From a virus (Duplodnaviria > Caudoviricetes): DNA of 53,607 bases. Shown piece by piece: positions 206 through 21,398 of the stretch. The translations under genes were made by a program, and so were the position numbers. The DNA lies in IMG/VR virus record IMGVR_UViG_3300028557_000049, positions 1-53,607 of that record, one strand, 5' to 3'. The stretch's first letter is position 1; each line of letters starts with the position of its first letter. The notes under the pieces were generated by a model. The model was not told the DNA's origin and made no database searches. It worked only from the letters and a program-made list of their open reading frames with translations.

Positions 206-691
206 TTAACTTATTCTCTCTCCATTCTTATACGTAAATTCTCTATACAACTGTCCGTTCTCATACCAACTACGATATAATCCATCTATCTTTCCATTCT
301 TATACGTATATTCTACTCTCAACTGTCCGTCCTCATACCACATACGATATAATCCATCTAACTCTCCATTCTTAAACGTACATTCTACTCTCAACTGTCC
401 GTTATCATACCACCAACGATATAATCCATCTATCTTTCCATTCTTATACGTACATTGTACTTCCAACTGTCCGTTAGAATTCCATTGTTTAGCAATATGA
501 TTTGCTTTACTTTCAATATAGTTTATATCTATAGTTAAACCATTTTCTTCTAACCAAGATATATTACCTAATACTGTTTGCCATGCACTTAATTCATCGT
601 TCAATTCAATGAATTGAATAAAGTTATTTAATTGTGCTGAACAAGCATTATGCTTAATAGCAAATTCTTTGATTTGGTGTAGTGTTATCAT
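206..691 (-). CDS. MORN-variant repeat protein (YwqK-like)
   Basis: About 3.5 tandem 24-aa repeats YKNGKIDGLYRxWYxNGQL; 72-bp DNA period. Confidence 0.8.
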   Translation of the reverse strand: MITLHQIKEFAIKHNACSAQLNNFIQFIELNDELSAWQTVLGNISWLEENGLTIDINYIESKANHIAKQWNSNGQLEVQCTYKNGKIDGLYRWWYDNGQLRVECTFKNGELDGLYRMWYEDGQLRVEYTYKNGKIDGLYRSWYENGQLYREFTYKNGERIS

Positions 692-7898: not shown

Positions 7899-8005
7899 AT
7901 TTCAAAAAAGCCCAAACGTGCTAACGTAGGTACAATATTTATCCTATAATATACAAAGCCATGTATATCAAGGTATTATAAATATGTCTTTAGGGCTGGC
8001 GTACC

Positions 8006-8025
8006 ATGTACACAAATGTGTACAT
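8006..8025. repeat. dispersed palindrome ATGTACACAAATGTGTACAT, copy 1
   Basis: Identical copy at 8290-8309; 18-bp copy at 23241-23258. Confidence 0.85.
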
Positions 8026-8026
8026 A

Positions 8027-8227
8027 TTACCATGATTTCTTATTAACTAAATTTAGCAGATTATATACCAGTGCTGCATCATATTCTTGCTTAGATATTA
8101 CATCGACACAAGTATCCTTACCTCCAGCATAAGCTAGGCTAAAACGTCCATCATTTAATTCAGCGTAGGTAAGATGATAATCTATATCTATAAAATAAAT
8201 CTTAAAGGCTTTTTTAATTAATTTCAT
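8027..8227 (-). CDS. hypothetical protein
   Basis: ORF between two palindrome copies. Confidence 0.6.
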   Translation of the reverse strand: MKLIKKAFKIYFIDIDYHLTYAELNDGRFSLAYAGGKDTCVDVISKQEYDAALVYNLLNLVNKKSW

Positions 8228-8289
8228 ATTATTCTTTATTATAATATACTTGGGGCCGATGTGCGGCTACGCCATCTAACATCGTACCG

Positions 8290-8309
8290 ATGTACACAAA
8301 TGTGTACAT
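8290..8309. repeat. dispersed palindrome, copy 2
   Basis: ATGTACACAAATGTGTACAT. Confidence 0.85.
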
Positions 8310-8716
8310 CATAGTGATTTTTGGTTAGTGGTTTTAAGCCAATTATAAATTTTATCAGCTTTATCGGTAAAGTAGCTTAATTCATAACGTATACTATTAT
8401 CCATAGCTACAGCCAATTTAAGGCACTCTAATCTAAGATTAACATCTTTATCGCTAACTTCTACCTTATTTGGGTTATCGTTGGTTAGCGTGGTTGTTTC
8501 ACCCCATTCAGATAACTCTTGTGGTGTTGGTGTGTATGGTTCAAAATCTGTTATATCAAGGTCGTCCATAAATTCTCCTACTTGCCACAACGAACCTTCG
8601 ACAGTTTTTGCTATTCCTTCAAAATATCTATTGCTATCTTTTTGATAGCCAACAAATTGCACCTTTAGACCTTGGTTGCCTTTATACTTATAATACTTCT
8701 TATAATACTTGTTCAT
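8309..8716 (-). CDS. hypothetical protein
   Basis: ORF; C-terminal LRLECLKLA...ADKIYNWL module. Confidence 0.6.
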   Translation of the reverse strand: MNKYYKKYYKYKGNQGLKVQFVGYQKDSNRYFEGIAKTVEGSLWQVGEFMDDLDITDFEPYTPTPQELSEWGETTTLTNDNPNKVEVSDKDVNLRLECLKLAVAMDNSIRYELSYFTDKADKIYNWLKTTNQKSL

Positions 8717-8796
8717 TGGTTATTGGTTATTGGTTTATACAAAGATACATTATTTATTGGTTATTTCAATAGGTTTAGGGGGTAACGGCTTATTGT

Positions 8797-9003
8797 TTAA
8801 AGTCTGTTGTATTCCCCTAATTTAGTTCTGTGACAGATAGTGCACTTGTATTTTTTGCAATACCAAGGTTTTGGGCAGTTAAAATTAAAAATAGTGTCAA
8901 AATGCTCCCATTTGTGCTTACAGTGGTTAAACTTCCATGTCGGATAGTAGCTTACTAAAGCGCCTATTAACACGATTAATGCAATTACGATTAATAATCC
9001 CAT
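8797..9003 (-). CDS. small membrane-anchored Cys/His protein
   Basis: TM helix then CKHKW...CTICH. Confidence 0.6.
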   Translation of the reverse strand: MGLLIVIALIVLIGALVSYYPTWKFNHCKHKWEHFDTIFNFNCPKPWYCKKYKCTICHRTKLGEYNRL

Positions 9004-9063
9004 AACTATTGGTTGTTTAGTTGTTCCTCAATTTTACTTAAAATAACTTTAGTATTATTGAGG

Positions 9064-9414
9064 TCATGGCTTTAGCTTTTCTATTTTAATTAGCATTTCC
9101 GCTTTTTTTTGCTGAAAATTAGGATTTTGGCTAGCTATCCTATCCGCAAAATCAATATCTACATCTATCAACTGGGATTTGGCTAGAAAATCGTTTTTGG
9201 TATAAATTATTGTAGGGTAGTTAGGGTAAGTGTCAATCGTTGAGTTATCTACCTCAATTGCATAACCAAGTTTATTTATCTCTATTTCTTGCTTATCACT
9301 TAACCTGTAAGGGGTTTTCATTTTCATGACCTCATCTTCATTAAGTGCAAGTAGCACAGAAGTCGCCTTATACTGTTCTTTGTTTGCCAATGGCAATTCG
9401 TTATATTTTTTCAT
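9064..9414 (-). CDS. hypothetical protein
   Basis: ORF with ATGA overlap. Confidence 0.6.
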   Translation of the reverse strand: MKKYNELPLANKEQYKATSVLLALNEDEVMKMKTPYRLSDKQEIEINKLGYAIEVDNSTIDTYPNYPTIIYTKNDFLAKSQLIDVDIDFADRIASQNPNFQQKKAEMLIKIEKLKP

Positions 9415-9625
9415 GCAAAGTAGTTTTTAAGCACCTCTGGGAAGTGCTTGGTTAGAATTTCTATTGCTTTTTGGGCGGTTTGTTTTGATTTAAAAATCAC
9501 ACCTGATGGTTGTATGCCAATACAATCATACAAATTAACAGTATCACCACATTTACCCATTACCCACGCTTTACCATTTAAAAAATCGGCTACCCAATCA
9601 CCGTTCAACTCTTTGGCTACTTATT
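9411..9625 (-). pseudogene. C-terminal fragment of a phage protein (VAKELNGDWVADF...FKSKQTAQKAIEIL)
   Basis: No ATG start; joined out of frame to a 13-codon head MSIITELETLLNK*. Confidence 0.45.
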
Positions 9626-9654
9626 TAGTAGCGTTTCCAGTTCGGTTATGATGC

Positions 9655-9843
9655 TCATGATTTAATGAAGAAGTATGCGGAAAACAAACAGGCTATAAAA
9701 AACACAATCCCCAATAGCCATATTATTGCATTTTCTCCAACTAAAGCCCAAAAGCAATACCCAATACCTACTATCATTGCAATTATTCCAACAAAACCTA
9801 CAAACAGTAGTATCGCAAGTCCAAATATTTTAAGTGCTTTCAT
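9655..9843 (-). CDS. small two-TM membrane protein
   Basis: Two hydrophobic stretches. Confidence 0.6.
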   Translation of the reverse strand: MKALKIFGLAILLFVGFVGIIAMIVGIGYCFWALVGENAIIWLLGIVFFIACLFSAYFFIKS

Positions 9844-9908
9844 ATTAGTTGTCTTTAGTAGCGTTAATCATTTCTGCGCTTGATTTAAGTATCTTATCCA
9901 AGTAATCT

Positions 9909-10298
9909 CTACTGCCCATTTGAGTGGTAGGGTGCCATACCCATTTCACTGATTACGTAAATTTCACCTCTCTTTACTTGACCACTAAATAAATCCATTG
10001 GTGCTTTATAACCTATTATTTTCTTATCGCTCATTTCTTCTTTTTTTAAAATATCCATAAACTCTTTAGCTGTAAATACTTTTGGATTGTTCTCAAAATC
10101 GTTAATATGCAACCAAACATTAGTGCCATAATAACTACTATTACCATCATAACCATAATAATAATTTCTATCATACCCGTCCCAGTTATAACCATACTGC
10201 TCATTTAACCAACTAAGGTAGTCTTTAAATTCCGCAGAATCATCATTTTTAACTAAAAAATATTTAAATGGTAGTTGTTCTTTTGTCTTTAGTTTCAT
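9909..10298 (-). CDS. hypothetical protein, possibly truncated
   Basis: ORF ends shortly after KKIIGYKAPMDLF. Confidence 0.55.
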   Translation of the reverse strand: MKLKTKEQLPFKYFLVKNDDSAEFKDYLSWLNEQYGYNWDGYDRNYYYGYDGNSSYYGTNVWLHINDFENNPKVFTAKEFMDILKKEEMSDKKIIGYKAPMDLFSGQVKRGEIYVISEMGMAPYHSNGQ

Positions 10299-10332
10299 GG
10301 TGTTTGATTTGTTTCAGTAAAGGTAGATAAAA

Positions 10333-10581
10333 TTATTGATTATTGCAAGCCTTTTTCCAAAAGGAATCTATCTCATCGAAAAATTCTCCATCCCACTCCT
10401 TATCTTTGTGGATTTCTTGAAACTCATCAGTAAGTTCTTTTGCAAGTTCATACATACCGCCACGTCCTTGCTGTTCATATCTTCGTGTCACAAAATCCTT
10501 GGTATTATAATCTAATAAGGATTCTGCTATCCTCATATTTATCTCAAAGTAGGTTTCTAGGTATTCTTCATCCATTTCCAT
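10333..10581 (-). CDS. acidic hypothetical protein
   Basis: ORF with own promoter. Confidence 0.6.
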   Translation of the reverse strand: MEMDEEYLETYFEINMRIAESLLDYNTKDFVTRRYEQQGRGGMYELAKELTDEFQEIHKDKEWDGEFFDEIDSFWKKACNNQ

Positions 10582-10642
10582 CGTTGCGTAGTTTAGTTTT
10601 TAATTATCCTATTGTAAAGGTAAGAATATTTTTCCGAAATAC

Positions 10643-11008
10643 CTAATTTAATAGTTCAACAAACTCAGAATAGTAATTATACACATCTAAGTAACCACTA
10701 CTATGGCCATGTTCCCATGCAAGGTTAAATAGCTTGTCTACTTTAGGGTTATCTGTTACCCCAAAATCCTCAGCCAAGTCCTGTTTAAACTGTAAGAATA
10801 ACCTATTGTCCTCATTTCTGTAATGATTTACCGCTAAGTTATACTCATTTTTAAGCCTTATTTCAGTAGCTTCTCTTTCTTCCCTTACTTGTAGTAGAGT
10901 ACCTGTAAAAGTACCCATTGCTTCATCAATGTCCTTTGTTGTAGGTTTTGAAGGGTAAGGTAGTTTGTTGGTATATTGGTTATTTTGTATGTTTTCGTAA
11001 ACGTCCAT
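10643..11008 (-). CDS. hypothetical protein (AWEHGHSSG motif)
   Basis: ORF with own promoter. Confidence 0.65.
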   Translation of the reverse strand: MDVYENIQNNQYTNKLPYPSKPTTKDIDEAMGTFTGTLLQVREEREATEIRLKNEYNLAVNHYRNEDNRLFLQFKQDLAEDFGVTDNPKVDKLFNLAWEHGHSSGYLDVYNYYSEFVELLN

Positions 11009-11070
11009 GTCTTTTTGGTTTTTTGTATATCAAAGGTAAGAATATTATTTCAAATAACCAAATTAATGTT

Positions 11071-11676
11071 CTATAAATCTTTTCTATTTACGTCATAAAA
11101 ATAATTATTGGTATCTTCACTCATCCACCTACTGCTTATTTCACAAGAAAGGATTTCTGTATCTACCTTTTGTGACTTAGCTAATTCTGGGGTAAGTTCT
11201 TTGGTAACAAAATTGGTATCGGCCCAGAGTATTCTATTATTTGGTTGACAAAGCAGATAACCATCATCTGATAGAAGTACATGACCACATTTATAATCTG
11301 TTGGGTCATTTGAAAAAGCATTATTAAACCAATCGATAGTAAACAAATATTTAGCCCATATCTTAGTTTGGTCTTTAAGAATTACTTGGCATCTATTTAA
11401 TAATTGATATTGTATTATATTTGCATCATAGCCAAAGCAATCCCATAATTGTTTAAAATCGTGAGGTATATCTTTATCGCTAATTTCGACAAAGATTTCG
11501 CTAAGGGGTATCCTAGAGCGATGTATACCATGTTCTGTTAGTACATGGAAGGTAAGTATCTTATTAGGCAATGATTGTACGGCATGAGCAATACAAAAGT
11601 ACCATTGATTGCTATCAGCCTTGGTGAAGTATGATTCACGAACATAGCATTTAAAATGTGGTATGTTATAGTTCAT
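11071..11676 (-). CDS. conserved phage hypothetical protein
   Basis: QLWDCF, YLFTIDW, KCGH and QPNNRILW motifs. Confidence 0.7.
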   Translation of the reverse strand: MNYNIPHFKCYVRESYFTKADSNQWYFCIAHAVQSLPNKILTFHVLTEHGIHRSRIPLSEIFVEISDKDIPHDFKQLWDCFGYDANIIQYQLLNRCQVILKDQTKIWAKYLFTIDWFNNAFSNDPTDYKCGHVLLSDDGYLLCQPNNRILWADTNFVTKELTPELAKSQKVDTEILSCEISSRWMSEDTNNYFYDVNRKDL

Positions 11677-11683
11677 ATTTAAT

Positions 11684-11881
11684 TTATAATAGTTCTTTTG
11701 GGTATGGTGCAGTTTTGATTTCTAAATTATCTATCATACCTGAAAGATAACACAACCTACGCTGCCTATCGCACATATCCCTAGCGTATTGGTTGATAGC
11801 TTCAATACACTTATTATAGGCATCATCTGAATCATTTTCTGAATCACGAAAATAATCATTTAGTATTTCCTCTGGTGTCAT
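11684..11881 (-). CDS. hypothetical protein
   Basis: ORF. Confidence 0.55.
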   Translation of the reverse strand: MTPEEILNDYFRDSENDSDDAYNKCIEAINQYARDMCDRQRRLCYLSGMIDNLEIKTAPYPKELL

Positions 11882-12009
11882 TTCGTTTCGTTTAATAGGT
11901 TGGGTTTTATTAATTCAATTTTTAAACAGCTAAAACAAACTAAGTCTTCTCCTTGTTGGTAAAGAGCACTACATTTCATACCACATTGGTCACAAGGTAA
12001 TTCTTTCAT
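11878..12009 (-). CDS. 43-aa zinc-finger-like protein (CDQC...CFSC)
   Basis: Read by hand; ATGA overlap with the next gene. Confidence 0.55.
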   Translation of the reverse strand: MKELPCDQCGMKCSALYQQGEDLVCFSCLKIELIKPNLLNETK

Positions 12010-12045
12010 ATTGTTTTATCTTTTGGTTTTAATATTTAACTAGGG

Positions 12046-12426
12046 TCAATCAAAACTAGAACCACTATCAAAACTAGAACCGCTGTCATAGCTTGAGCTA
12101 TCACTGCTATACGAGGTGGTATCGTTACTAGTATAATCTGAATTGGTAGAATGATTATCATCATGTGAATTTCCTTCCCAATGGTGATTGATAGTTGGGG
12201 TTTCTTGCCTATAAGAATCTTGATTGGCTTGGTATATGGGGCTTAACGGGTTCCAAGGGTTGGTTAAATCAGATATTAAATCATCATTATTCGTATTCGA
12301 ACGTTGGTAACCGCTTGGTGAAGCATTTCTTGAAATTGGTTGCTTTACTGGTGTTTTTGGGTTAATGATGGGTCTTGGGGTTTCTTTCTTTTTGAATAGA
12401 AACTCTAGGAATTTAGTAATTTTCAT
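12046..12426 (-). CDS. hypothetical protein with Ser/Asp-rich tail
   Basis: SSYDSGSSFDSGSSFD low-complexity end. Confidence 0.65.
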   Translation of the reverse strand: MKITKFLEFLFKKKETPRPIINPKTPVKQPISRNASPSGYQRSNTNNDDLISDLTNPWNPLSPIYQANQDSYRQETPTINHHWEGNSHDDNHSTNSDYTSNDTTSYSSDSSSYDSGSSFDSGSSFD

Positions 12427-12521
12427 TTGCTTATTTTTTTAAGGGTTAGTGGTTATTGTTTAGTTCATTAAATGTACGATAATTAATTGACACTACAAAG
12501 GATATACCCCTGTTTTTCTTT

Positions 12522-12812
12522 TTACAATGATAATAAATTACTAAAACCAACAACTCTCCATGCTACTTCTTCTTTACCATAGTATTTTTCAATAGTGTGT
12601 ACAAGTTCATAAGCACTATCAATATTAACCATTGTAATAAACTTGTAATTTTTAAACAAGTTATCTTTGTAAAAATTCTGTTCTTCTGTGGATAAACCTA
12701 TCCACCAATCACTAGAGTTATTTCTTAGTATGTGTTTTTCTGTCATTTTACATTTATTAAAGTTCTCATTAACAATAAGTATTATTGTGCCAATTAGAAA
12801 ACGTTCATCCAT
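12522..12812 (-). CDS. hypothetical protein
   Basis: ORF with promoter at ~12831-12862; start uncertain. Confidence 0.5.
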   Translation of the reverse strand: MDERFLIGTIILIVNENFNKCKMTEKHILRNNSSDWWIGLSTEEQNFYKDNLFKNYKFITMVNIDSAYELVHTIEKYYGKEEVAWRVVGFSNLLSL

Positions 12813-12874
12813 TTTCTAATTATTGTGTTACAAAGGTACTAAAAATATTTCAGACTACCAAACATGGAATAGTA

Positions 12875-13138
12875 TTATTTATCACTTATTAATACACCCT
12901 CGTTGTTCCAAGCTCTTCTGGGAACAACCTCCACACCATCTATATAAATACATTCATCCCATAGCCCACCATTACAATACCATGAACGAAATAAGTCATT
13001 TAGCTTACTATCCTTATAGTTTTTTTCAAAAGATAATTGACCATTCGTATACCATGAACGATATAATCCATTTAGCTTACCATCCTTATACGTTTCTTCA
13101 ATAGCTAATTGACCATTAGAATACCATTGACGATATAA
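12875..13138 (-). pseudogene. 5'-truncated MORN-variant repeat gene abutting the IS607 right end
   Basis: LYRQWYSNGQL...YKDGKLNGLYRSWY repeats start exactly after ...GAACGG; the track's N-terminus is element sequence. Confidence 0.7.
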
Positions 13139-13300
13139 CCGTTCAACAGAAATTAGACAAAGTTGCCTATACCCAATTTCACGTTTTCTTGTATCATCCA
13201 ACCATATCTAACACAACCATTGCTAGTTATATCCCAATAGAGGGTTGTCCTCAAGCTTTCATTCCATTGCTGGAACTGATTCGGGCAAACGTTGCCCTAT
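13120..13300 (-). ncRNA. predicted omegaRNA (scaffold plus flank-derived guide) of TnpB
   Basis: Inferred from position (tnpB 3' end to element right end); boundaries approximate. Confidence 0.45.
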
Positions 13301-14431
13301 CATATTATATAATCTCATTCCCTCATGCTCAATATTAAGCGCAGCATTCTCATCCCTGTCTATAATCAATCCACATCCCTCACAGATAAACTCCCTGTCA
13401 GCTAATGTCAAGTTAACATTCTTCCAACCACAACATGAACATGTCTTACTGCTCGGATAAAACCTGTCAACAAACATCACTTCCCTTCCATGCCAAGCTG
13501 ATTTATATTCAATCTGTCTTCGCATCTCGCCTAGACTTAATTCTTGAATAGCTTTCGCCAATTTATGATTTTTAAGCATTCCACTTACATTCAAATCTTC
13601 CAGACAGATAACTTGGTTTTCGTTAACCAATCTGGTTGTGATATTATGAAGAAAATCATTCTTTTGATTTTTTATTTTCTCATGTAACCTTGCTAATTTA
13701 ATCTTAGCTTTATACCTGTTATTACTTCCTTTTTGTTTTTTAGAAAGCCTTTTTTGTAATCTAATCAGTTTTTCTTCTGATGTTCTTATCCACTTAGGGT
13801 TATCAATGGTTTCACCATTCGATAATGTAAGAAGTGTCTTGATTCCAAGGTCAATACCAACTGAATGATTAACTGGTTCATTCATTACACGAAGCAAATC
13901 ACCATCAATCAAGATGCTTGCATAATAATGACCACATTTCTTTCTTATTATTGTTATTGATTTGATTCCTGTTTTGTTCTTATACAAATAATCCTTATCC
14001 CGTTTGCTACATTCAAAATTAATACCATTAATTGTTTTAGTTAAATTTAACTTAGATTGAACCTCATCAAATGTTTTGCTTGCAACAGCCTCTTGTGGGA
14101 ATCTTGCTTTCTGTTCATCATGCTTTGATTTGAATTTAGGAAAACCTCTACCTTGTTTAAAGAAGTTCTTATAAGCCGTTTCAAGGTTAATGATTGATTG
14201 TTTAAGAACCTTTGTATTATGTTCTTTCAGCCATTCATAATCATTACGTAGATTACCATGAAAATACTTTCCAAGGTCAGAGAATGAAGTATTTGATTTA
14301 TCCGTTTCGTAACGTTGTTTCTTATAAGCAAGCGATTGATTAAAGACAAATCGATAAGAACCCAAGAGTGAGTTAATTCTCATCTCTTGGCTCTTATTCG
14401 GGTATAATCTAATCTTAATCGCTTTTAACAT
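13259..14431 (-). CDS. tnpB: RNA-guided endonuclease TnpB
   Basis: KAIKIRLYP HTH, GFPKFKSK, GIDLG, EDL, SSKTCSCCG, DRDENAA; RuvC D-E-D intact. Confidence 0.95.
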   Translation of the reverse strand: MLKAIKIRLYPNKSQEMRINSLLGSYRFVFNQSLAYKKQRYETDKSNTSFSDLGKYFHGNLRNDYEWLKEHNTKVLKQSIINLETAYKNFFKQGRGFPKFKSKHDEQKARFPQEAVASKTFDEVQSKLNLTKTINGINFECSKRDKDYLYKNKTGIKSITIIRKKCGHYYASILIDGDLLRVMNEPVNHSVGIDLGIKTLLTLSNGETIDNPKWIRTSEEKLIRLQKRLSKKQKGSNNRYKAKIKLARLHEKIKNQKNDFLHNITTRLVNENQVICLEDLNVSGMLKNHKLAKAIQELSLGEMRRQIEYKSAWHGREVMFVDRFYPSSKTCSCCGWKNVNLTLADREFICEGCGLIIDRDENAALNIEHEGMRLYNMIGQRLPESVPAME

Positions 14432-14949
14432 TAAAAATCTTTTGTTACTATTTTATTACCATTCCAAACAATAACTCTATACGCTTTAGAAAAAATCATA
14501 TTACCATATTCATTTTGAGCCTTATAACTCCACGTAATACATAATTCATTTCCACTAGTAAAGAAAATTAAACCATTTGATTCTGTTATCGGAGTGAAAC
14601 TTTCTTTATTTTTTAAATATAAAGTAGTCATCCATTGTGATGCTAGGCATTGGTTATATAAAAATATTTCTATGTGAGGATTTTTATTAAAAAATTGTAT
14701 CATTTCTTTGTTGGCAACAGTATCAGAAAATGTTTCAATATCCCATTGTTTAAACATATCACTTTGTGTTAGTTTAAATACTGTACTATCATCTATATTA
14801 AAAGTAACAGGTATTTCAACTCCTAATCCATTTGTAAAAACAGTATGAAATTTACCATTTTTAATGTAAACTTCAGTTGGTTTTGTTTGGGCTAAAAGAC
14901 TAGCAAATATAAAAACATTAATTGTAAATAATAAAAATAATTTTTTCAT
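14431..14949 (-). CDS. secreted protein (cargo 4)
   Basis: Signal peptide MKKLFLLF...LLAQ from ATG 14949; YKAQNEYG motif. Confidence 0.7.
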   Translation of the reverse strand: MKKLFLLFTINVFIFASLLAQTKPTEVYIKNGKFHTVFTNGLGVEIPVTFNIDDSTVFKLTQSDMFKQWDIETFSDTVANKEMIQFFNKNPHIEIFLYNQCLASQWMTTLYLKNKESFTPITESNGLIFFTSGNELCITWSYKAQNEYGNMIFSKAYRVIVWNGNKIVTKDF

Positions 14950-14980
14950 AAAATTGTGGTTTTGGTTTGTTAATAATAAT

Positions 14981-15334
14981 TTAAAATAATAATTCGATTT
15001 GCCCATTCTGAGATATGAATTGAATTGGGGTTTCAACTTCAATAGTCAGAGCGTAATCTGGTGTTGTAACAATAGTAGCTCCAAAACTATAAAGTGTATC
15101 GTTATTTTGTTTAACAAGTACGCTATCTCCTTTATAAAAAAACTCTGGTTTTACATCACCGTTATTTATTTGGAAAAATGCATAACGATATGTTATGGTA
15201 TCATTGTCTGGCACTTCAATTATATGATTATAATCCCACACAACTGATGTCCTTTCAATAAGATGATTATCTTTTTGACAAGACGAAATGATAAGCGTTG
15301 CTATGATAGCCAATAAGAAAAATAATTGTTTCAT
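14981..15334 (-). CDS. lipoprotein (cargo 3)
   Basis: Lipobox ATLIISS-CQKD. Confidence 0.75.
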   Translation of the reverse strand: MKQLFFLLAIIATLIISSCQKDNHLIERTSVVWDYNHIIEVPDNDTITYRYAFFQINNGDVKPEFFYKGDSVLVKQNNDTLYSFGATIVTTPDYALTIEVETPIQFISQNGQIELLF

Positions 15335-15360
15335 AAAATTATTAATTTAGATTTAGCGTT

Positions 15361-15969
15361 TTACCAGTCATTTTGGGTAGTGCTATTCATCGCTTTATGT
15401 AATGAATTTATTGAAGAGTTAATATATTGTTCGATAGCTGGTTTAACTTCTTCATTCCATATTTTTTTATTTAAAACCATTTTAGCGCATACTGGTTCAC
15501 TATTACGTAAATCACCATAACAATATTCTTTACCATAATAGTGACTAAAGGAGCCTGTTGGATTACCAGCTAACTTAGCTCCAGAACTAGTATATACTTG
15601 ATAACAATGCGTAGTTGGTTTAATTATTAATTTGTATTTATTATCCTTACAATATAAAGCCAAACTAAACCATATTCTATGTTTCCACATTTGGCCCATT
15701 GTTTTGGTATTAATAACAAAATTACCTTTAATAAATAACTGATTATTAACTTCATCTAAATTTCTAGTTGCATCTTCAAAAGAAACAAATACATCAGCAA
15801 AGTACATTCTCGCATTTCCAAATAGCGTTTTAGCATCAGTATTAGGTACATCAACTAAACTAACATATTCTATTTCACCGTTTTCATTCTTAGGCCAATT
15901 ATTATCATAATTCTGAGTATATGATGATAATGAATAAAATAAAATTGTAATAATAAAAATAATTTTCAT
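15361..15969 (-). CDS. secreted protein, DUF4468-like (cargo 2)
   Basis: Signal peptide; CKDNKYK motif and ...NDW end typical of Bacteroidetes proteins. Confidence 0.65.
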   Translation of the reverse strand: MKIIFIITILFYSLSSYTQNYDNNWPKNENGEIEYVSLVDVPNTDAKTLFGNARMYFADVFVSFEDATRNLDEVNNQLFIKGNFVINTKTMGQMWKHRIWFSLALYCKDNKYKLIIKPTTHCYQVYTSSGAKLAGNPTGSFSHYYGKEYCYGDLRNSEPVCAKMVLNKKIWNEEVKPAIEQYINSSINSLHKAMNSTTQNDW

Positions 15970-15998
15970 AATTTTAATTTAAAGTGTTTAAAATAATT

Positions 15999-16268
15999 TT
16001 ACCATTGTGGTTGGTTAGTCACACATACTCTATCACCAATAAAATTGTTTAACCAAAAAGTATAATCACAACAAAATACTTTATAATTACCACTACAGTC
16101 ATTTTTAATTGTTAAAGTATAACAAGATGTTATTTCATCATCAGTTATAATACCACAATTACATTGTTGATTAGAACCAATACCATTCACATCATCGTCT
16201 AATTCATCTTTTTGACAAGACGAAATGATAAGCGTTGCCATTATAGCAAATAAGAATAATTTTTTCAT
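15999..16268 (-). CDS. Cys-rich lipoprotein (cargo 1)
   Basis: Lipobox ATLIISS-CQKD; CNCG, NDCSGN. Confidence 0.75.
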   Translation of the reverse strand: MKKLFLFAIMATLIISSCQKDELDDDVNGIGSNQQCNCGIITDDEITSCYTLTIKNDCSGNYKVFCCDYTFWLNNFIGDRVCVTNQPQW

Positions 16269-16337
16269 AAAATTGTGTTTTTTTGTTTGTTAATTAATAT
16301 TCTACAAAGGTAATAATTCTTTTTGTAACGACCAAAT

Positions 16338-16958
16338 TTATTTAGCATTATTTTTCTCTTTTCTTCTCTTTGCACTACGCTTACCATACAGCTTTCCACT
16401 GAAACTAGCCATCAACATCATGATGTCATTAACTAACTCCTCTTCCTCACTCACGTCTACATTGTTCTCCACCTTCTCAATCTCAACACCATAACTGTTG
16501 AAGAACTTCTCTATCAAGTTATATTGAAATCTTGTTAATCTGTCCTTATGTTCAATAACAACTTTTTCAATCTTGCCAGCTATTACCAAATCAAGTAGCT
16601 TAACAAACCCATTTCTAGTGTCTGACAGACCAGAACCAACATCTTTGATGATATGGTCCACTTGGTACTTTTTCTTCGCACAGTGCTCACTTAAACGCTG
16701 TGATTGCCTATCTAAATCTCCCTTGGCTTTCTGCTCATGGGATGAAACTCTTGAATATGTACAAATTGGTTTCTTTATAACCTTAACAGGTAAATAGACC
16801 TTCATATACTTATCAATATCGTCTTGAAGGTATCTCCTGTGGCCACCAACAGTTTTAATGGCTTTAAGCGTACCTTCATCGTCCCACCTACGTAGTGTCT
16901 TGGTTGAGACGGATAACAGACTTGCAGCTTCCTTAATTGTTATAAGTTTACTGCTCAT
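16338..16958 (-). CDS. tnpA: IS607-family serine transposase TnpA
   Basis: MerR-like HTH (TLRRWD...GGHRRY), YSRVSS, DVGSG, DRLTRF, FSGKLYG. Confidence 0.95.
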   Translation of the reverse strand: MSSKLITIKEAASLLSVSTKTLRRWDDEGTLKAIKTVGGHRRYLQDDIDKYMKVYLPVKVIKKPICTYSRVSSHEQKAKGDLDRQSQRLSEHCAKKKYQVDHIIKDVGSGLSDTRNGFVKLLDLVIAGKIEKVVIEHKDRLTRFQYNLIEKFFNSYGVEIEKVENNVDVSEEEELVNDIMMLMASFSGKLYGKRSAKRRKEKNNAK

Positions 16959-17178
16959 CGTTTTCGTCCTTTAATATATTGTCTAGGTGACTTATTATTG
17001 TTGATTGAGATTTGTCCAATATTATCTGGAATTCCTCAACCGTAATGTCCTCATCCAATTCAAAAGTATGAGGGTATATATCACCATTATCAAGCTCGAA
17101 CTCGGTCTTGCTTACTCTAATAACAGTGAATTTCTTTTTTTCTAATTGTGACATAATTGTTGTTAGTTTCTTTTTCAT
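16948..17178 (-). CDS. small acidic protein at the head of the IS607 element
   Basis: Overlaps the tnpA start; ATATTTAT immediately upstream. Confidence 0.65.
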   Translation of the reverse strand: MKKKLTTIMSQLEKKKFTVIRVSKTEFELDNGDIYPHTFELDEDITVEEFQIILDKSQSTIISHLDNILKDENDEQ

Positions 17179-17260
17179 ATATAAATATACAGAAGTTTCA
17201 TAAAAGATACAATATTGTAAAAATATTTCTAAGATTGCCTAATTTTTTATTAGCAGTTGG

Positions 17261-17626
17261 TCAACCCTCAATAGTCACATACAATAATATGAAAAACCAA
17301 CAAAGGACCCCTACTAAAAAGATTTGTCCAAACGGCTTGATACTTAAATCTATTGGTACAAACAACCATACTACAACAAATATCATATGACTAATGGCTA
17401 TTATTGTCATATAGGCACCCATACTCAAGCCAATTCTTTCACCCCATGTTGTTTTATCAAATCTAGTAAGAAATAAACCTATAAATGATAATAAACTTAG
17501 TGGTATAATCAATATCCACATTAATACCAACCGCCAAAAATATGGACAAAGATTGGTGGGCATTTTATCTTGGTTGTAGAACCAGCGATAAAGCCTTGCT
17601 ACTAGTGTTGTTGAGCTTAAGTTCAT
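17261..17626 (-). CDS. membrane protein, probably truncated by the IS607 left end
   Basis: NLCPYFW plus TM helices; stop codon falls at the GGTT junction. Confidence 0.6.
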   Translation of the reverse strand: MNLSSTTLVARLYRWFYNQDKMPTNLCPYFWRLVLMWILIIPLSLLSFIGLFLTRFDKTTWGERIGLSMGAYMTIIAISHMIFVVVWLFVPIDLSIKPFGQIFLVGVLCWFFILLYVTIEG

Positions 17627-17648
17627 AATATTCTGATATTTTAGTTAA

Positions 17649-17852
17649 TTAGTGCCAACGTTTTTTTAATTCAGCTTCAGTACCTAGTGTTTTAGGAAAG
17701 CTATCAACTATTTTCCATTCTAGTGTAAATACGTCAAATTGCATCTTCAGATTACATCTTTTACAAATACATTTGTTTGGTAATGATGGGAAATTGTATC
17801 GAAAATTATGGCCAAATAATTTACAAAACATTCTTATAATTTTACTTCCCAT
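17649..17852 (-). CDS. DUF1660-like small protein
   Basis: FCKLFGH...CKRC. Confidence 0.6.
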   Translation of the reverse strand: MGSKIIRMFCKLFGHNFRYNFPSLPNKCICKRCNLKMQFDVFTLEWKIVDSFPKTLGTEAELKKRWH

Positions 17853-18157
17853 TTGATATATTTTGGGTGTATATACTTAGGAATCGTTGATGATACGACA
17901 TCTTTAATCGAATCATTGGTAGTGTTCATAGTGAACACATCAACCACTTCTACTTCTACCAATTCATCATATACGCCCACGGTACGTACCTTGGTAAAGA
18001 TATCATACTTTACGGTTTGAATACCATCATTCGATGTTCCAAAGGATAGACTATCACAGTATATTCCAATGTCACCTTTTTCTATGGGTATTATTGGCTT
18101 AAACCATGACTTGAACCATACGATGATGGCTATTTGATTTAAAGAATCATTTCTCAT
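17834..18157 (-). CDS. hypothetical protein
   Basis: ORF with own promoter. Confidence 0.6.
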   Translation of the reverse strand: MRNDSLNQIAIIVWFKSWFKPIIPIEKGDIGIYCDSLSFGTSNDGIQTVKYDIFTKVRTVGVYDELVEVEVVDVFTMNTTNDSIKDVVSSTIPKYIHPKYIKWEVKL

Positions 18158-18225
18158 AAGTAGTTATTTATTTTGTTGATACAAAGGTAAGCAATTATTT
18201 TGAAACTACCAAACTTTTTCTAGCT

Positions 18226-18450
18226 TTAATAATTTATACGGTTATTAAGTTCCATCCCAGATATCTTATAGCCTAGTTGTTTATAATCTTCGATTAATTG
18301 ATTGTGTTCACCCATAAGCTTAAGGTTTTCTTCATTATACTCATATACCCTTAGGCTAGATAATCTGCGCCCATCATACATCTTGGTCTTTTCTGGGAGT
18401 TCAACTACCTTCATTGGAAAATCCCAATATAGCTTTAGAATTACTTTCAT
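18226..18450 (-). CDS. hypothetical protein
   Basis: Start at MKVILK gives an ATGA overlap with the upstream gene. Confidence 0.55.
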   Translation of the reverse strand: MKVILKLYWDFPMKVVELPEKTKMYDGRRLSSLRVYEYNEENLKLMGEHNQLIEDYKQLGYKISGMELNNRINY

Positions 18451-18836
18451 ATTTGAATATGTTTTGATATTAATTCTTCTATACAAGCCAATTCAGCTTC
18501 CTCGTATGTTGGTCTAATATATTTTAATCTATCATCACCAAATAAACGAATGGTGGATGCGATACGTTCATCGTTATCCTTAAAGGTATGCCAAGCATAA
18601 CCTTCATCTACCTTGCTAATCTCTGAATCAGTATTATGTACCTGTCTAAACCATTTAAAGGCTTGCTGATATGTAGCGGCTGCAATAGGATTAAATTCTG
18701 TTTGCCTTTTATGGTGTGGGAAAACCAAATCAAACCCACCATAAGCATTAGAACAATACACAGCAAAACAATCTTCTTTAAACCCTAAACCCTCTATTGA
18801 TTTAGCCTCTTTTGGTCGTAAGAATAAATCTTCCAT
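18447..18836 (-). CDS. phage hypothetical protein (LGFKEDC...QQAFKWFR...TYEEAE)
   Basis: Motif pattern familiar from Bacteroidetes phage ORFs. Confidence 0.65.
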   Translation of the reverse strand: MEDLFLRPKEAKSIEGLGFKEDCFAVYCSNAYGGFDLVFPHHKRQTEFNPIAAATYQQAFKWFRQVHNTDSEISKVDEGYAWHTFKDNDERIASTIRLFGDDRLKYIRPTYEEAELACIEELISKHIQI

Positions 18837-18837
18837 A

Positions 18838-19767
18838 TTATTTTAAGTTAATACTTCTTACAAAATCAATATGCTCTTTGCTCATAGGTGTGCCAGCGTG
18901 ATTAAGTGTAAGAAAATTATCTAATATATCTTCATCAGTGGCAGACTCATCCATTTCACCATAAGCTAGGTTTGGATAAGCCATAAACCTACGCTGTGCA
19001 TCAGTAGATAAGTCGTTCCAATAATTACCATGTAGGTCGGGAAACTTGTTCTCACAAAAATCTATAATAGCGTTAAACCTTTGCTTACCATCAACACAAT
19101 CAAAACCATAACCAACACCAAACTCACGTTCTGCTTCTTGTAGTCTCTTAAAAGAATTGTACCTAAACAAGAATTTACCTATCTCAATACCTTGGTAAAT
19201 ACTTTCAATGAGTAATTGTTTCTGCTCTAGTGTCCAAACAAGACCACGTTGAAAATGATGCTTGTTACCTTCCTTGTCTTTTACATAAGGGTCAAAATTA
19301 ACCCTAAATCCCCAATCATCACTATCATCAAAATTAAGCCTGTTTTTACTTCTCTTGTACCCTGCTTTAAATAATAGGCTGGATAAGTCTTGATTATAGA
19401 AGTTTATTCTGCGTTTTTCTTTACCAAAAGGATTATTACCACACTCGTAGGTTGTAGGTGATATATAAGCATTGGAAACCACTGCTATGGTTTGGTATTG
19501 TTTTGGAAAGTAAGTTTTCACAACATCCTTTAATTCAGTAGGAATCCTTGTGCTTTGATAATCAATATGTACATCACCATTTTCCAATTTATACACATCA
19601 CCCTCTAACCTGAATACCTGTGGAACGGTAGTGGTTATGGTTTCTTTCTTTTTACCCCTACCAACGGTTTCGGTTTTGGTTGTATCGTAGTTTATAACTA
19701 CACTAACCTTATCACCTATCTCAATAGGTTTAGCTAGTTTGGCTTCTATTTGTTCTTGCTTGTTCAT
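18838..19767 (-). CDS. DUF262 / ParB-like (GmrSD N-terminal) domain protein
   Basis: FQRGLVW...LIESI, VDGKQR, F..LN..GTP. Confidence 0.8.
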   Translation of the reverse strand: MNKQEQIEAKLAKPIEIGDKVSVVINYDTTKTETVGRGKKKETITTTVPQVFRLEGDVYKLENGDVHIDYQSTRIPTELKDVVKTYFPKQYQTIAVVSNAYISPTTYECGNNPFGKEKRRINFYNQDLSSLLFKAGYKRSKNRLNFDDSDDWGFRVNFDPYVKDKEGNKHHFQRGLVWTLEQKQLLIESIYQGIEIGKFLFRYNSFKRLQEAEREFGVGYGFDCVDGKQRFNAIIDFCENKFPDLHGNYWNDLSTDAQRRFMAYPNLAYGEMDESATDEDILDNFLTLNHAGTPMSKEHIDFVRSINLK

Positions 19768-19784
19768 ATGACAAAGGTACATAA

Positions 19785-20240
19785 TTATTTTGAAACTACC
19801 AAATATGGCTTAACATATTTTAAAAACTCTTCAACCCCCATATCACCTTTTTTACTGTTACATTTGCTACAACACACACAGACGTTAGATTCATCGAACA
19901 CACCACCACCCTTACTAATAGGAATTATATGGTCAATAGTGGCCATCATATTATGTGGAACTTTCATACCGTTAAATTCTATTCGTAAGTTAGACTTTTT
20001 ACAATAGCAACAAGTTAACTTACCATCTTTCTTTAACTTACGCTTCAGAAAGTTCCTAGAAAAGGATATCTTACGCATCTTGCCAGAAAATGATTTTACA
20101 TTGGTTTCATCGTTATCGAAATAATGCTTTTTAAGTAGAACATATGATGCATATGTATTAGGTTCAGATACCTCAAAGTATATCTTATCGACATACTTGG
20201 TACTACCGCTACTGCTGCTATAAATTACCTTGTGTATCAT
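19785..20240 (-). CDS. HNH nuclease-domain protein
   Basis: CCYC...ATIDHIIPISKGG...N...CSKCNSKKG; start at MIHKV after the promoter near 20258. Confidence 0.8.
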   Translation of the reverse strand: MIHKVIYSSSSGSTKYVDKIYFEVSEPNTYASYVLLKKHYFDNDETNVKSFSGKMRKISFSRNFLKRKLKKDGKLTCCYCKKSNLRIEFNGMKVPHNMMATIDHIIPISKGGGVFDESNVCVCCSKCNSKKGDMGVEEFLKYVKPYLVVSK

Positions 20241-20304
20241 AACGCTAGATTTAGAACACAAAGGTAAATAATAAAAAGGATAAAACCAAATCTGAGTTAA
20301 GGTT

Positions 20305-20694
20305 TTATATGAAATAGGTTTGTAAGGCTTTATAAACATCTCTGAGATGCTTCTTATTCTCGTATACTGCCATGAATGTGCCTAGGGGTTTTTGTGTGAT
20401 AAATAACGTTCTAGCGAAGTAATTATCAACAAAGAATCTTGATTGACAAGGCTCAAGGATATCGGCATAATCAGCGTCTGAGGTAATTAACCCACATATC
20501 CAACCCTTCTTGGTCTTTTTAAGCAACACATATGGGTGACGAAATATCTCGTGCATAAACACATCACCAACAAGATATTCTGAAGGCTTTGTCTTAGAAC
20601 CAATACTTGGCAAACATGATACCCAAGATAAAATAACTTCTTTATCTAGGGTCTTGCTTTCGTTAATCTTTTTAGTTAAAATAACCTTATCCAT
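20305..20694 (-). CDS. hypothetical protein
   Basis: ORF with own promoter. Confidence 0.65.
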   Translation of the reverse strand: MDKVILTKKINESKTLDKEVILSWVSCLPSIGSKTKPSEYLVGDVFMHEIFRHPYVLLKKTKKGWICGLITSDADYADILEPCQSRFFVDNYFARTLFITQKPLGTFMAVYENKKHLRDVYKALQTYFI

Positions 20695-20735
20695 AACTTA
20701 TTTTGTTTTAGAATACAAAGGTAAAACAAATAATT

Positions 20736-21065: not shown

Positions 21066-21086
21066 TCTACTTTATTTTAAAACATG

Positions 21087-21389: not shown

Positions 21390-21398
21390 ATGTTAGTT

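What the first reader, a model, noticed from the sequence alone, without database searches (positions are those of the whole stretch)
12875..13300. TnpB guide would come from a MORN-repeat unit, and the element's two flanks belong to different genes
Seen: the right end ...GTTGAACGG is followed by TTATATCGTCAATGGTAT, the start of a headless MORN-repeat gene, while the left flank is an unrelated membrane gene ending ...ATTGAGGG. Rejoining the flanks restores neither gene. The predicted guide matches other repeat units at 16/18 (13049-13066) and 15/18 (263-280, 335-352, 407-424), all with the first 9 nt identical and preceded by ATGGA. Known: TnpB guides derive from DNA flanking the right end. 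Inference: recombination between two insertions or an adjacent deletion reprogrammed the nuclease toward a multi-copy repeat family, perhaps in competing phages; self copies could escape through TAM or distal mismatches.
Basis: partly seen in the sequence, partly recalled or inferred. Interest (0 to 1): 0.7.

Follow-up and report, generated by a model that had tools for sequence, protein, structure and literature searches.

The report
Transposon-end deletion rewrote a TnpB guide
A jumping gene in a lake phage lost 1.6 kb of neighbouring DNA at its right end, so its RNA-guided nuclease now carries a guide taken from a repeat-protein gene, and an undeleted sister copy found in a metagenome shows the state before the loss.

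Summary
The element is a 4.1-kb IS607-family transposon on the minus strand (17264 to 13139). It holds a left end, a small ORF (orf76), serine-recombinase tnpA, four extra ORFs, an intact ISDra2-like tnpB and an omegaRNA-like right end finishing ...GTTGAACGG.

Its left flank is a membrane gene lacking its conserved 50-residue tail. Its right flank is a MORN-repeat gene lacking at least 112 N-terminal residues.

A metagenome contig (L046) shows the earlier state. It has the same right end, then the missing membrane-gene tail in frame, four small genes, and an intact MORN gene reading GAT GGG|TTA TAT CGT CAA TGG.

The window allele therefore lost 1,611 bp, from the right-end GG to a TGGG site, the preferred IS607 target.

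The claim of reprogramming against a multi-copy repeat family is not supported:
- The five other units in the window have 2-3 mismatches at guide positions 5-12.
- They have GGA or GAC where 23 of 24 related insertions have GGG.
- The 5 exact 18-mer hits in IMG/VR look like chance.

The only natural perfect target found is the ancestral allele's own MORN gene.

This is known biology with an unusual natural before-and-after pair. Interest is moderate.

The parts
17265..17626 (-). 5' part of a phage membrane-protein gene (left flank). It is truncated: it lacks the conserved C-terminal 50 residues. The called ORF, 17261-17626, borrows its last T and its TGA stop from the element.
   Evidence: 17 of 17 full-length homologues are 152-185 aa and end in ...KAKYxKYCPxIxW. 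The tail is absent from the window. Joining to L046 gives a 171-aa in-frame ORF carrying the motif (E 8.8e-16).
17265..17267 (-). GGG next to the left end. It is the IS607 target motif and the inferred TAM; the GG crossover core is 17265-17266.
   Evidence: 23 of 24 distinct related insertions have GGG here. The literature reports a GG core, a 5'-TGGG target and TAMs such as GAGGG.
13139..17264 (-). IS607-family transposon, 4,126 bp, counted from the first element base (T, 17264) to the right-end GG (13140-13139).
   Evidence: Left end defined against 16 relatives and right end against 4. There is only one left-end motif and one right-end profile hit in the window. Scarless restoration of the membrane ORF confirms both boundaries.
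17179..17264 (-). Left end (LE), beginning TTGACCAACTGCTA...
   Evidence: Conserved in 17 of 17 loci, with unrelated DNA upstream.
16948..17178 (-). orf76, a small conserved ORF overlapping the start of tnpA; function unknown.
   Evidence: Present upstream of tnpA in 16 of 16 related loci. No Pfam or PHROG match. The Atlas shows virus-only clusters.
16338..16958 (-). tnpA, an IS607-type serine recombinase with an N-terminal MerR-like HTH and a resolvase catalytic domain. The RVSS motif is at residues 70-73.
   Evidence: Pfam Resolvase 3.1e-20, HTH_17 1.4e-12, MerR 1.4e-11; motif position.
14431..16268 (-). Four extra ORFs between tnpA and tnpB: 15999-16268 (89 aa), 15361-15969 (202 aa, DUF4468), 14981-15334 (117 aa) and 14431-15042 (203 aa). 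Several have signal-peptide or lipoprotein-like N-termini.
   Evidence: ORFs; DUF4468; PHROG hits of unknown function. L005 has tnpA and tnpB adjacent. Relatives carry other cargo at the same place. An independent contig (X11) bridges 15448-16404.
13259..14431 (-). tnpB, 390 aa, ISDra2-like RNA-guided nuclease. The catalytic D194/E278/D360 and the CxxC...CxxC zinc ribbon are present.
   Evidence: Pfam OrfB_IS605 1.8e-28, Cas12f1-like TNB 1.2e-23, HTH_OrfB_IS605 1.6e-14. PDB ISDra2 TnpB E 6.3e-64 with the motifs aligned. Invariant columns; positions.
13139..13302 (-). omegaRNA-like scaffold overlapping the 3' end of tnpB and the right end (RE), finishing ...GTTGAACGG.
   Evidence: Conserved in 5 elements. 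31 predicted pairs, 11 with compensatory changes. No Rfam family. The window copy has an 18-nt insertion and one broken pair.
13119..13138 (-). Predicted guide-encoding flank, TTATATCGTCAATGGTATTC. The start is uncertain by 1 nt because T follows GG at 24 of the 26 placed right ends, the other two reading ACGAT.
   Evidence: Position follows from the RE boundary. T after GG.
12875..13138 (-). 3' fragment (88 codons) of a MORN_2-repeat gene. It is headless: no start codon of its own, and at least 112 N-terminal residues are missing.
   Evidence: Pfam MORN_2. The intact gene is in L046. The fragment begins mid-unit at the junction.
13049..13066 (-). Neighbouring MORN unit, 16/18 match to the guide, preceded by TGGA.
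12977..12994 (-).
206..691 (-). Second, complete MORN_2 gene (161 aa). Its units at 263-280, 335-352 and 407-424 match the guide 15/18 and are preceded by TGGA.

Best explanation
Shown. The locus is one IS607-family transposon in a lake-phage genome. Its order is left end, orf76, serine-recombinase tnpA, four passenger ORFs, an intact ISDra2-like tnpB, and an omegaRNA-like right end. It first inserted scarlessly at a GAGGG|T site inside a membrane-protein gene. That state survives in metagenome contig L046. In the window allele, 1,611 bp directly after the right-end GG are gone. The lost DNA held the membrane-gene tail, four small genes and the first 112 codons of a MORN-repeat gene. The far breakpoint is GAT GGG|TTA TAT CGT, a TGGG(T) site of the kind IS607 transposases choose.

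Inferred.
- The loss was TnpA-dependent. Most likely a second copy inserted at the MORN TGGG site in the same orientation, and homologous recombination between the two 4-kb copies then removed one copy and the interval.
- TnpB guides are transcribed from the DNA just beyond the right end, so the guide changed from TGTTAAAGGG... (membrane gene) to TTATATCGTCAATGG... (MORN unit).
- The inferred TAM is GGG, supplied by the left flank.
- The occupied site is protected because the right end puts CGG there.
- The phage's five other MORN units escape because they have GGA or GAC there and 2-3 mismatches at guide positions 5-12.
- After excision the joint ...GAGGG|TTATATCG... would be cut and the element restored, as in other TnpB elements.
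- The new guide also matches the intact MORN gene of the undeleted allele perfectly, behind TGGG.
For: Anatomy. Pfam hits for TnpB and TnpA. TnpB catalytic residues align to ISDra2 TnpB. The omegaRNA-like region has 11 of 31 pairs with compensatory changes.

Boundaries. The left end is conserved in 17 of 17 loci with unrelated upstream DNA. The right end stops at ACGG+T in 5 of 5. The window has one left-end motif and one right-end profile hit.

One element rather than two. L005 has orf76-tnpA-tnpB adjacent. Relatives carry variable cargo between tnpA and tnpB. About 27 nt before the tnpB ATG align with the tnpA tail of L005 (weak).

Truncations. 17 of 17 full-length membrane homologues are 152-185 aa with a conserved tail. 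That tail is not in the window.

Undeleted allele. L046 positions 1736-1838 are 100% identical to window 13138-13240, and positions 1-127 to window 13014-13140. The 1,611 bp between are absent from the window. The left flank joined to L046 gives a 171-aa in-frame ORF with the family's C-terminal motif (E 8.8e-16). L046's four inner ORFs have no match in the window.

Target motif. GGG lies before the element in 23 of 24 distinct insertions, with all four bases seen at position -4; L068 has GATGGG, like the MORN site. The GG core, the 5'-TGGG target and TAM, and the GAGGG TAMs come from passages read.

Guide matches.. The ancestral 20-mer has no match at up to 4 mismatches in the window.
Against: - No RNA data. 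The 3' end of the omegaRNA, the guide length and the TAM are inferred, not measured.
- The window's omegaRNA region carries an 18-nt insertion and one broken pair relative to 4 relatives, so the RNA may be impaired.
- L046 is a single 1,838-bp contig ending in repeats at both ends. That it is allelic, rather than a second locus, is an inference.
- No element-free allele and no excision joint were found.
- Nothing distinguishes a second insertion followed by recombination from a one-step TnpA reaction or a TnpA-independent deletion at the 3-nt GGT microhomology.
- Four other GGGT sites lie on the same strand of L046, three of them between the right end and the breakpoint, so the choice of site is unexplained.
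Confidence: 0.8

Rival explanations
1. One-step adjacent deletion. TnpA recombined the GG at the unexcised right end directly with the TGGG site 1.6 kb downstream, as in resolution between direct sites, and released the interval as a circle. No second insertion was needed.
For: Both breakpoints are exactly a TnpA crossover site, and GG(T) is shared at both. The far site fits the family's target motif (passages). No second copy is seen in the window or in L046.
Against: In the passages read, IS607 transposition goes through an excised circle formed by pairing both ends. A reaction of one end with a target is not described there. A search for 'IS607' with 'adjacent deletion' found 0 papers. The product is identical to that of two copies followed by recombination, so sequence cannot tell them apart.
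Confidence: 0.3
2. TnpA-independent deletion. Replication slippage or end joining occurred at the 3-nt microhomology GGT and happened to start at the transposon end.
For: Both breakpoints share only GGT. Phage genomes often lose non-essential DNA.
Against: One breakpoint coincides to the base with the element boundary, and the other with a GGG-T target motif. A random 3-nt microhomology deletion would rarely do both.
Confidence: 0.07
3. L046 is not the ancestral allele. It is either a chimeric assembly or a second locus (duplicate) of the same genome, so the history of the window's hybrid flanks stays open.
For: L046 is short (1,838 bp) and ends inside repeated sequence at both ends. Only about 15% of the genome is in the record by CheckV's estimate.
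Against: A chimera would not be expected to place the missing membrane-gene tail directly after the right end, in frame and with the family's conserved motif. Both overlaps are 100% identical. The inner genes are absent from the 53.6-kb window.
Confidence: 0.07
4. The new guide is an adaptive weapon against the multi-copy MORN family of competing, unrelated phages.
For: The guide lies in a repeat unit whose first 9 nt recur in 4 other units of this phage. MORN_2 genes occur in related phages.
Against: No other unit matches perfectly. The 5 exact 18-mer hits among 2.9 million viral contigs are outside MORN frames and lack an adjacent GGG. There are 0 hits of GGG plus the 18-mer in species genomes. 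The MORN protein has no close homologue in the 5.8-billion-protein index (lengths 59-189 aa only).
Confidence: 0.08

Closest known systems
IS607-family transposons with TnpB, as studied in the Clostridium botulinum CboIStron/IS607 elements (bioRxiv 10.1101/2023.11.20.567912, passages read) and in H. pylori IS607/IS1535 (eLife 2018, PMC6188088, passages read)
   Same: A serine-recombinase TnpA with an N-terminal HTH. No inverted repeats and no target duplication. A GG crossover core with a (T/N)GGG target that doubles as the TAM. tnpB downstream, with an omegaRNA overlapping the right end. The guide is taken from the right flank, and excision is scarless.
   Different: An extra conserved small ORF (orf76) lies before tnpA. 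There are 1.9 kb of passenger genes between tnpA and tnpB. The TnpB is closest to IS605-family ISDra2 TnpB. There is no group I intron and no RAGATH-18 RNA. The host replicon is a lake phage.
ISDra2 TnpB (PDB 8bf8/8exa/8h1j)
   Same: Full-length alignment over residues 3-372 (E 6.3e-64), with the RuvC D-E-D residues and the zinc ribbon conserved.
   Different: ISDra2 belongs to IS200/IS605, with a Y1 transposase and a TTGAT TAM (recalled, not from a call). Here the partner is a serine recombinase and the inferred TAM is GGG.
Free-standing homing endonucleases of T-even phages (marker exclusion and co-conversion) and 'transposon non-restorative homing' (review PMC13565253, passages read)
   Same: A nuclease encoded by one phage genome could cut a co-infecting relative at a site its own genome lacks, and repair would copy the cutter's allele.
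   Different: Here the discrimination would be RNA-guided. The allele copied would be a 1.6-kb deletion next to a transposon that both genomes already carry. None of this has been tested.
IS-mediated adjacent deletions and recombination between IS copies (general IS biology, recalled)
   Same: Flanking DNA is lost starting exactly at an element end.
   Different: I found no report of this for IS607: the search for 'IS607' with 'adjacent deletion' gave 0 papers. For a TnpB element the loss also rewrites the guide.

Membership tests
IS607-family transposon | Serine-recombinase transposase with an N-terminal MerR-like HTH and a C-terminal resolvase catalytic domain | tested here: met
   Pfam HTH_17/MerR at residues 5-52 and Resolvase at 67-202. 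RVSS motif at 70-73.
IS607-family transposon | Ends at GG, inserts at (G)GG, no target-site duplication, scarless donor joint | tested here: met
   GGG before the left end in 23 of 24 insertions. The right end finishes in GG. Left flank + GG + L046 flank restores a 171-aa ORF with no duplicated bases.
IS607-family transposon | Mobility: the same element in unrelated flanks | tested here: met
   In the 17-locus left-end alignment, which shows 16 distinct insertions because L037 and L045 are one, upstream DNA is unrelated from the left-end boundary on. Near-identical copies sit in different contexts.
IS607-family transposon | tnpB directly downstream of tnpA | tested here: not met
   1.9 kb with four ORFs separate them in the window. 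They are adjacent only in L005. Cargo at this position recurs in relatives.
TnpB (OMEGA) RNA-guided nuclease | RuvC-like D-E-D catalytic residues and a zinc-ribbon (TNB) domain | tested here: met
   D194, E278, D360 and C331/C334/C350/C353 are invariant in 5 relatives and align to ISDra2 TnpB.
TnpB (OMEGA) RNA-guided nuclease | Structured omegaRNA overlapping the 3' end of tnpB and the right end | tested here: inconclusive
   Conserved region with 11 of 31 predicted pairs showing compensatory changes, but only 5 sequences. No Rfam family matched. The window copy has an 18-nt insertion. No RNA run is listed.
TnpB (OMEGA) RNA-guided nuclease | Guide equals the DNA just 3' of the right end; TAM equals the motif 5' of the left end; cleavage of the empty site | not testable with these tools
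   Only the comparative inference is available: GGG at left flanks, and CGG at the occupied site.
IStron (IS607 with a group I intron) | Group I intron spanning the element so that flanking exons are spliced | tested here: not met
   No Rfam intron match in 12500-17800 at E up to 1. The flanks belong to different genes.
MORN_2 repeat protein (right-flank gene) | Tandem MORN_2 units | tested here: met
   Pfam PF07661 at 9.9e-11 for the fragment and 1.9e-21 for the intact gene in L046.

The most novel reading that the evidence does not exclude
The deletion allele behaves as an RNA-guided 'deletion drive'. Its new guide matches the intact MORN gene of the undeleted sister phage perfectly, behind a TGGG motif, and identity runs on for 125 nt. 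The ancestral allele's guide has no target left in the deleted genome. In mixed infections TnpB from the deleted phage would cut ancestral genomes. Repair from the deleted genome, using homology in the transposon on one side and the MORN 3' part on the other, would copy the 1.6-kb deletion. A rearrangement at a transposon end would thus turn a maintenance nuclease into a weapon against its own ancestor.
Probability: 0.22. Interest if true: 0.75.

Novelty: new variant of a known kind. Interest (0 to 1): 0.5.

Why it matters
TnpB guides are known to be copied from the DNA beside the transposon. Natural cases where both the 'before' and the 'after' of a guide change are preserved appear to be rare.

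Here one phage population offers both alleles with base-exact breakpoints at a transposase target motif. The outcome is asymmetric: the new guide targets the old allele, and the old guide has no target in the new one.

That makes three questions testable with ordinary plasmid and phage assays:
- Can IS607 transposases make end-anchored deletions?
- How does TnpB tell an occupied site from an empty one (CGG against GGG)?
- Can transposon nucleases bias inheritance between co-infecting phages?

The locus also shows that this phage-borne IS607 group carries passenger genes and removes phage genes, so it reshapes phage genomes beyond simple insertion.

Tried and rejected
- Two separate elements (orf76-tnpA and a tnpB-only element with ordinary phage genes between). 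Rejected. The window has only one left-end motif and one right-end profile hit. Relatives carry cargo at the same position. The left flank joined to L046's right flank restores one gene.
- Group I intron or IStron, and RAGATH-18 RNA. No Rfam match.
- Missing membrane-gene tail elsewhere in the window. tblastn with 10 homologues and a C-terminal profile against six frames gave nothing significant; the best E was 1.5.
- Close relatives of the phage. None in INPHARED by megablast with 20 kb. orf96 has no relative in IMG/VR.
- Membrane-tail 22-mer in IMG/VR. 0 hits, so no element-free or second occupied allele was found there.
- Guide targets. The 18-mer in IMG/VR gives 5 chance-like hits. GGG plus the 18-mer in species genomes gives 0.
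- Sequencing runs. 12 lake-water metagenome runs hold the stretch, and no RNA holder is listed. Contigs of X9-X12 laid on 8000-22000 show no joint at 13138 or 17264 and no loose end listed there. Depth is only about 2-5, contigs are short, and 143 loose ends and 261 pieces were not shown. This says nothing about absence.
- Earlier notes of this scan: none for this genome.
- A first join was off by one base and gave a false frame. It was corrected.
- Supplements of the papers were not opened. The TAM tables for IS607 TnpBs may be there.

Full report
**What the window is.** The window is a whole IMG/VR virus record of 53,607 bases. CheckV estimates it at about 15% of a genome. It has 31.5% G+C. 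Almost all genes near the finding lie on the minus strand. Twelve lake-water metagenome runs hold the 12400-17800 stretch, and none is on record as RNA.

**Check of the observation.** On the minus strand the sequence ...CTGTTGAACGG ends at 13139 and is followed by TTATATCGTCAATGGTAT (13138-13121).
- ORF 13259-14431 is a 390-aa TnpB (Pfam OrfB_IS605 1.8e-28, Cas12f1-like TNB 1.2e-23, HTH_OrfB_IS605 1.6e-14).
- ORF 12875-13201 carries MORN_2 repeats (9.9e-11).
- The 18-mer has 6 sites at up to 3 mismatches, against 0.14 expected; 0 of 100 shuffles reached 6.
- The four listed units share the first nine bases and are preceded by ATGGA. The fifth is preceded by ATGAC.
- ATTGAGGG is at 17272-17265, the end of a 121-aa membrane ORF. 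This is 4 kb outside the coordinates given.

**What the element is.** Between the two flanks lie these ORFs:
- a 76-aa ORF (16948-17178);
- a 206-aa protein with an N-terminal MerR-type HTH and a resolvase domain, i.e. an IS607-type serine transposase;
- four further ORFs (14431-16268, one with DUF4468);
- tnpB.

TnpB relatives in IMG/VR align with the window up to ...ACGG+T and are unrelated after it, in 5 of 5 sequences (blastn).

Fifteen TnpA relatives and L005 all have the 76-aa ORF directly before tnpA. All share a sharply bounded left end, GGGTTAATCAACTGCTA..., with unrelated DNA upstream, in 17 of 17 loci including the window; L037 and L045 are the same insertion. The window has one such left-end motif, at 17267, and one right-end profile hit.

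**One element or two?** I first suspected two elements with ordinary phage genes between them, because 15 of the 16 TnpA relatives, all but L005, showed no TnpB of the window's type.
- Pairwise comparison showed they are modular. They consist of a left module (left end, orf76, tnpA), variable cargo, and a 1.15-kb right module ending ...TTTAACGG+T.
- The right module encodes a second, 378-aa TnpB type (ORFs; Pfam TNB domain 3.3e-15).
- The cargo varies. It is an M24 peptidase in L033, two small ORFs in L039, 2.8 kb in L038, and a nested IS607 in L042.
- L005 has tnpA and tnpB adjacent.
- About 27 nt before the window's tnpB ATG align with L005's tnpA tail. This suggests the four ORFs were inserted into that tail. 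The alignment is short and AT-rich, so the evidence is weak.

I therefore read 17264-13139 as one 4,126-bp IS607-family element with passenger genes.

**Are the genes intact?** TnpB aligns over residues 3-372 with ISDra2 TnpB (PDB 8bf8, E 6.3e-64). D194, E278, D360 and the four zinc-ribbon cysteines are in place and invariant among five relatives. The ISDra2 residue numbers are recalled, not from a call. TnpA keeps the RVSS motif.

The 160 nt from the 3' end of tnpB to the right end are conserved. They fold into a common structure with 31 predicted pairs, 11 of which show compensatory changes. That is from only five sequences. The window copy has an 18-nt insertion after the first hairpin and one broken pair. 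No Rfam family matches, neither a group I intron nor RAGATH-18.

**The flanks.** Eighteen viral loci encode relatives of the membrane protein. Seventeen give ORFs of 152-185 aa ending in ...KAKYxKYCPxIxW, and one is cut by a contig end. In an alignment of 15 of them, the window's protein stops after the last hydrophobic segment. I left out the cut one and two that are identical to L021. The tail is not elsewhere in the window.

The MORN fragment starts mid-unit exactly at the junction and has no start codon of its own. Rejoining the window's flanks gives ...TIEGYIVNGILMVN*, with the MORN frame shifted by one base.

**The undeleted allele.** Passages of the CboIStron preprint report a strict GG core and a 5'-TGGG-3' target that equals the predicted TAM. 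I therefore searched for GGG followed by the 18-mer.
- Species genomes gave 0 hits.
- JGI metagenome contigs gave 1 hit, L046, a whole contig of 1,838 bp.
- L046 positions 1736-1838 are 100% identical to window 13138-13240 (the right end).
- L046 positions 1-127 are 100% identical to window 13014-13140 (the MORN units).
- The 1,611 bp between are absent from the window. The two identity blocks overlap by the three bases GGT.

Read on the element's strand, the right end ...GAACGG is followed in L046 by TGTTAAAGGG.... Joined to the window's left flank, this gives a 171-aa in-frame ORF ending ...ILTFIKAKYNKHCPQIKWD. It scores E 8.8e-16 against the homologues' C-terminal profile. This confirms both element boundaries to the base. 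It also shows that the original event was an ordinary scarless insertion into the membrane gene.

Downstream in L046 come ORFs of 120, 47, 92 and 93 aa, and then an intact MORN gene (MORN_2, 1.9e-21). Its residues 1-112 precede CAT GAT GGG|TTA TAT CGT CAA TGG. None of the four inner ORFs has a match in the window or in the other loci fetched up to that call, L003-L045.

**How the deletion arose.** One breakpoint is the right-end GG. The other is a TGGG(T) site.

Among 24 distinct left-end junctions of this element group, 23 have GGG before the element's first T and one has TGG. All four bases occur at position -4, and L068 reads GATGGG like the MORN site. Passages of the eLife 2018 paper give (G)GG as the preferred IS607 target, with a GG at the termini. 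A 2026 review gives AGGAG or GAGGG as the TAMs of most IS607 TnpBs, and the window's left flank ends in GAGGG.

The far breakpoint is therefore a canonical transposase target, which points to TnpA. I favour a second insertion at that site followed by recombination between the two 4-kb copies. The reasons are that transposition through an excised circle is what the passages describe, and that recombination between direct repeats gives exactly this product. A one-step reaction of the right end with the target, or a chance GGT microhomology deletion, cannot be excluded from sequence. Four other GGGT sites lie on the same strand of L046.

**Consequences for the nuclease (inferred).**
- The guide changed from the membrane-gene sequence to TTATATCGTCAATGG.... 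Its first base is uncertain by one, because GG is followed by T at 24 right ends that I could place, and two degenerate ends read ACGAT.
- The occupied site has CGG where targets have GGG.
- The five other units in the window have TGGA or TGAC there and mismatches at positions 10-12, or at positions 5, 10 and 11 in the third unit. Self-cutting is therefore unlikely.
- The hybrid excision joint, GAGGG|TTATATCG..., would still be a valid target, so the maintenance function is not lost.
- In public data the only perfect target behind GGG is the intact MORN gene of L046. The 5 exact 18-mer hits in IMG/VR are outside MORN frames and lack an adjacent GGG.
- The ancestral 20-mer has no match at up to 4 mismatches in the window.

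So the derived allele could cut the ancestral one but not the reverse. That is the basis of the novel case, and it is untested.

**Limits.**
- There is no RNA evidence.
- The TAM and the guide length are inferred.
- L046 is one short contig ending in repeats.
- No element-free allele was found.
- No excision joint appeared among contigs of four runs at depth 2-5, which does not show absence.
- X11 and X9 contigs independently bridge the cargo-tnpA junction (15448-16404 and 16285-16746). An X9 contig spans 14017-14461 across the tnpB start, but only 30 of its letters lie beyond it, one short of the tool's 31-letter bridging threshold.
- Paper supplements were not opened.

**Verdict.** The idea of a nuclease aimed at a multi-copy repeat family in other phages is not supported.

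The system is an IS607/TnpB element working as known. It is unusual in its extra ORF, its passenger genes, and the preserved before-and-after pair of a guide change.

Noticed in passing
window 16948-17178 (-); L005, L031-L045: A conserved 76-aa ORF sits just upstream of the IS607-type tnpA and overlaps its start in 17 of 17 elements. It has no Pfam or PHROG family, and the Atlas clusters are virus-only. It could be an accessory factor of this transposase group.
   Followed up: partly
window 14431-16268 (-): Four passenger ORFs lie between tnpA and tnpB: 89 aa, 202 aa with DUF4468, 117 aa and 203 aa. Several have signal-peptide or lipoprotein-like N-termini, and this block is 26.6% G+C against 31.5% for the window. 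The last ~27 nt before the tnpB ATG align with the tnpA tail of L005, as if the block had been inserted into that tail.
   Followed up: partly
L031-L045 (e.g. L039:1456-2592, L033:5425-6561): The same left end, orf76-tnpA and right-end terminus (...AACGG T) are combined with a second, unlike 378-aa TnpB type. Variable cargo sits between tnpA and tnpB: an M24 peptidase in L033, two small ORFs in L039, 2.8 kb in L038, and a nested IS607 in L042.
   Followed up: partly
L039:1-76 versus L037:1-1556 and L045: L039 and L037/L045 carry a 99.97% identical element and the same right flank, but their left flanks differ from the left-end GGG onwards. This is a second case of a flank switch exactly at an element end. 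Only 73 nt of L039's flank are known.
   Followed up: partly
L007:2979-3672; L004:2451-2852: These are deletion derivatives. In L007 the left end is fused to tnpB residues 161-384. In L004 the left end is followed by 400 bp and then a full tnpB, with no tnpA.
   Followed up: no
window 13255-13280 (-): The window's omegaRNA-like region has an 18-nt insertion after the first hairpin, which also supplies the tnpB stop codon. It also has one broken pair in the long-range stem, relative to four relatives.
   Followed up: no
L068, L069, L070 (one viral contig): At least five tnpB-only copies of a related element (about 47% TnpB identity) lie in one 78-kb viral contig. Their left flanks are GATGGG, ACGGGG and AATGG.
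   Followed up: partly
window 13652 and 15948: In run X10 a contig joins 13652 to 15948 with 19 other letters between (read-laying table 5c, depth 2.6). It may be another organism's element or a further rearranged copy.
   Followed up: no
L021:6001-9041 (also L022, L023): In distant relatives the full-length membrane gene is followed within 1-2.5 kb, on the same strand, by MORN-type repeat genes. The gene order seen in L046 is therefore not peculiar to this phage.
   Followed up: partly
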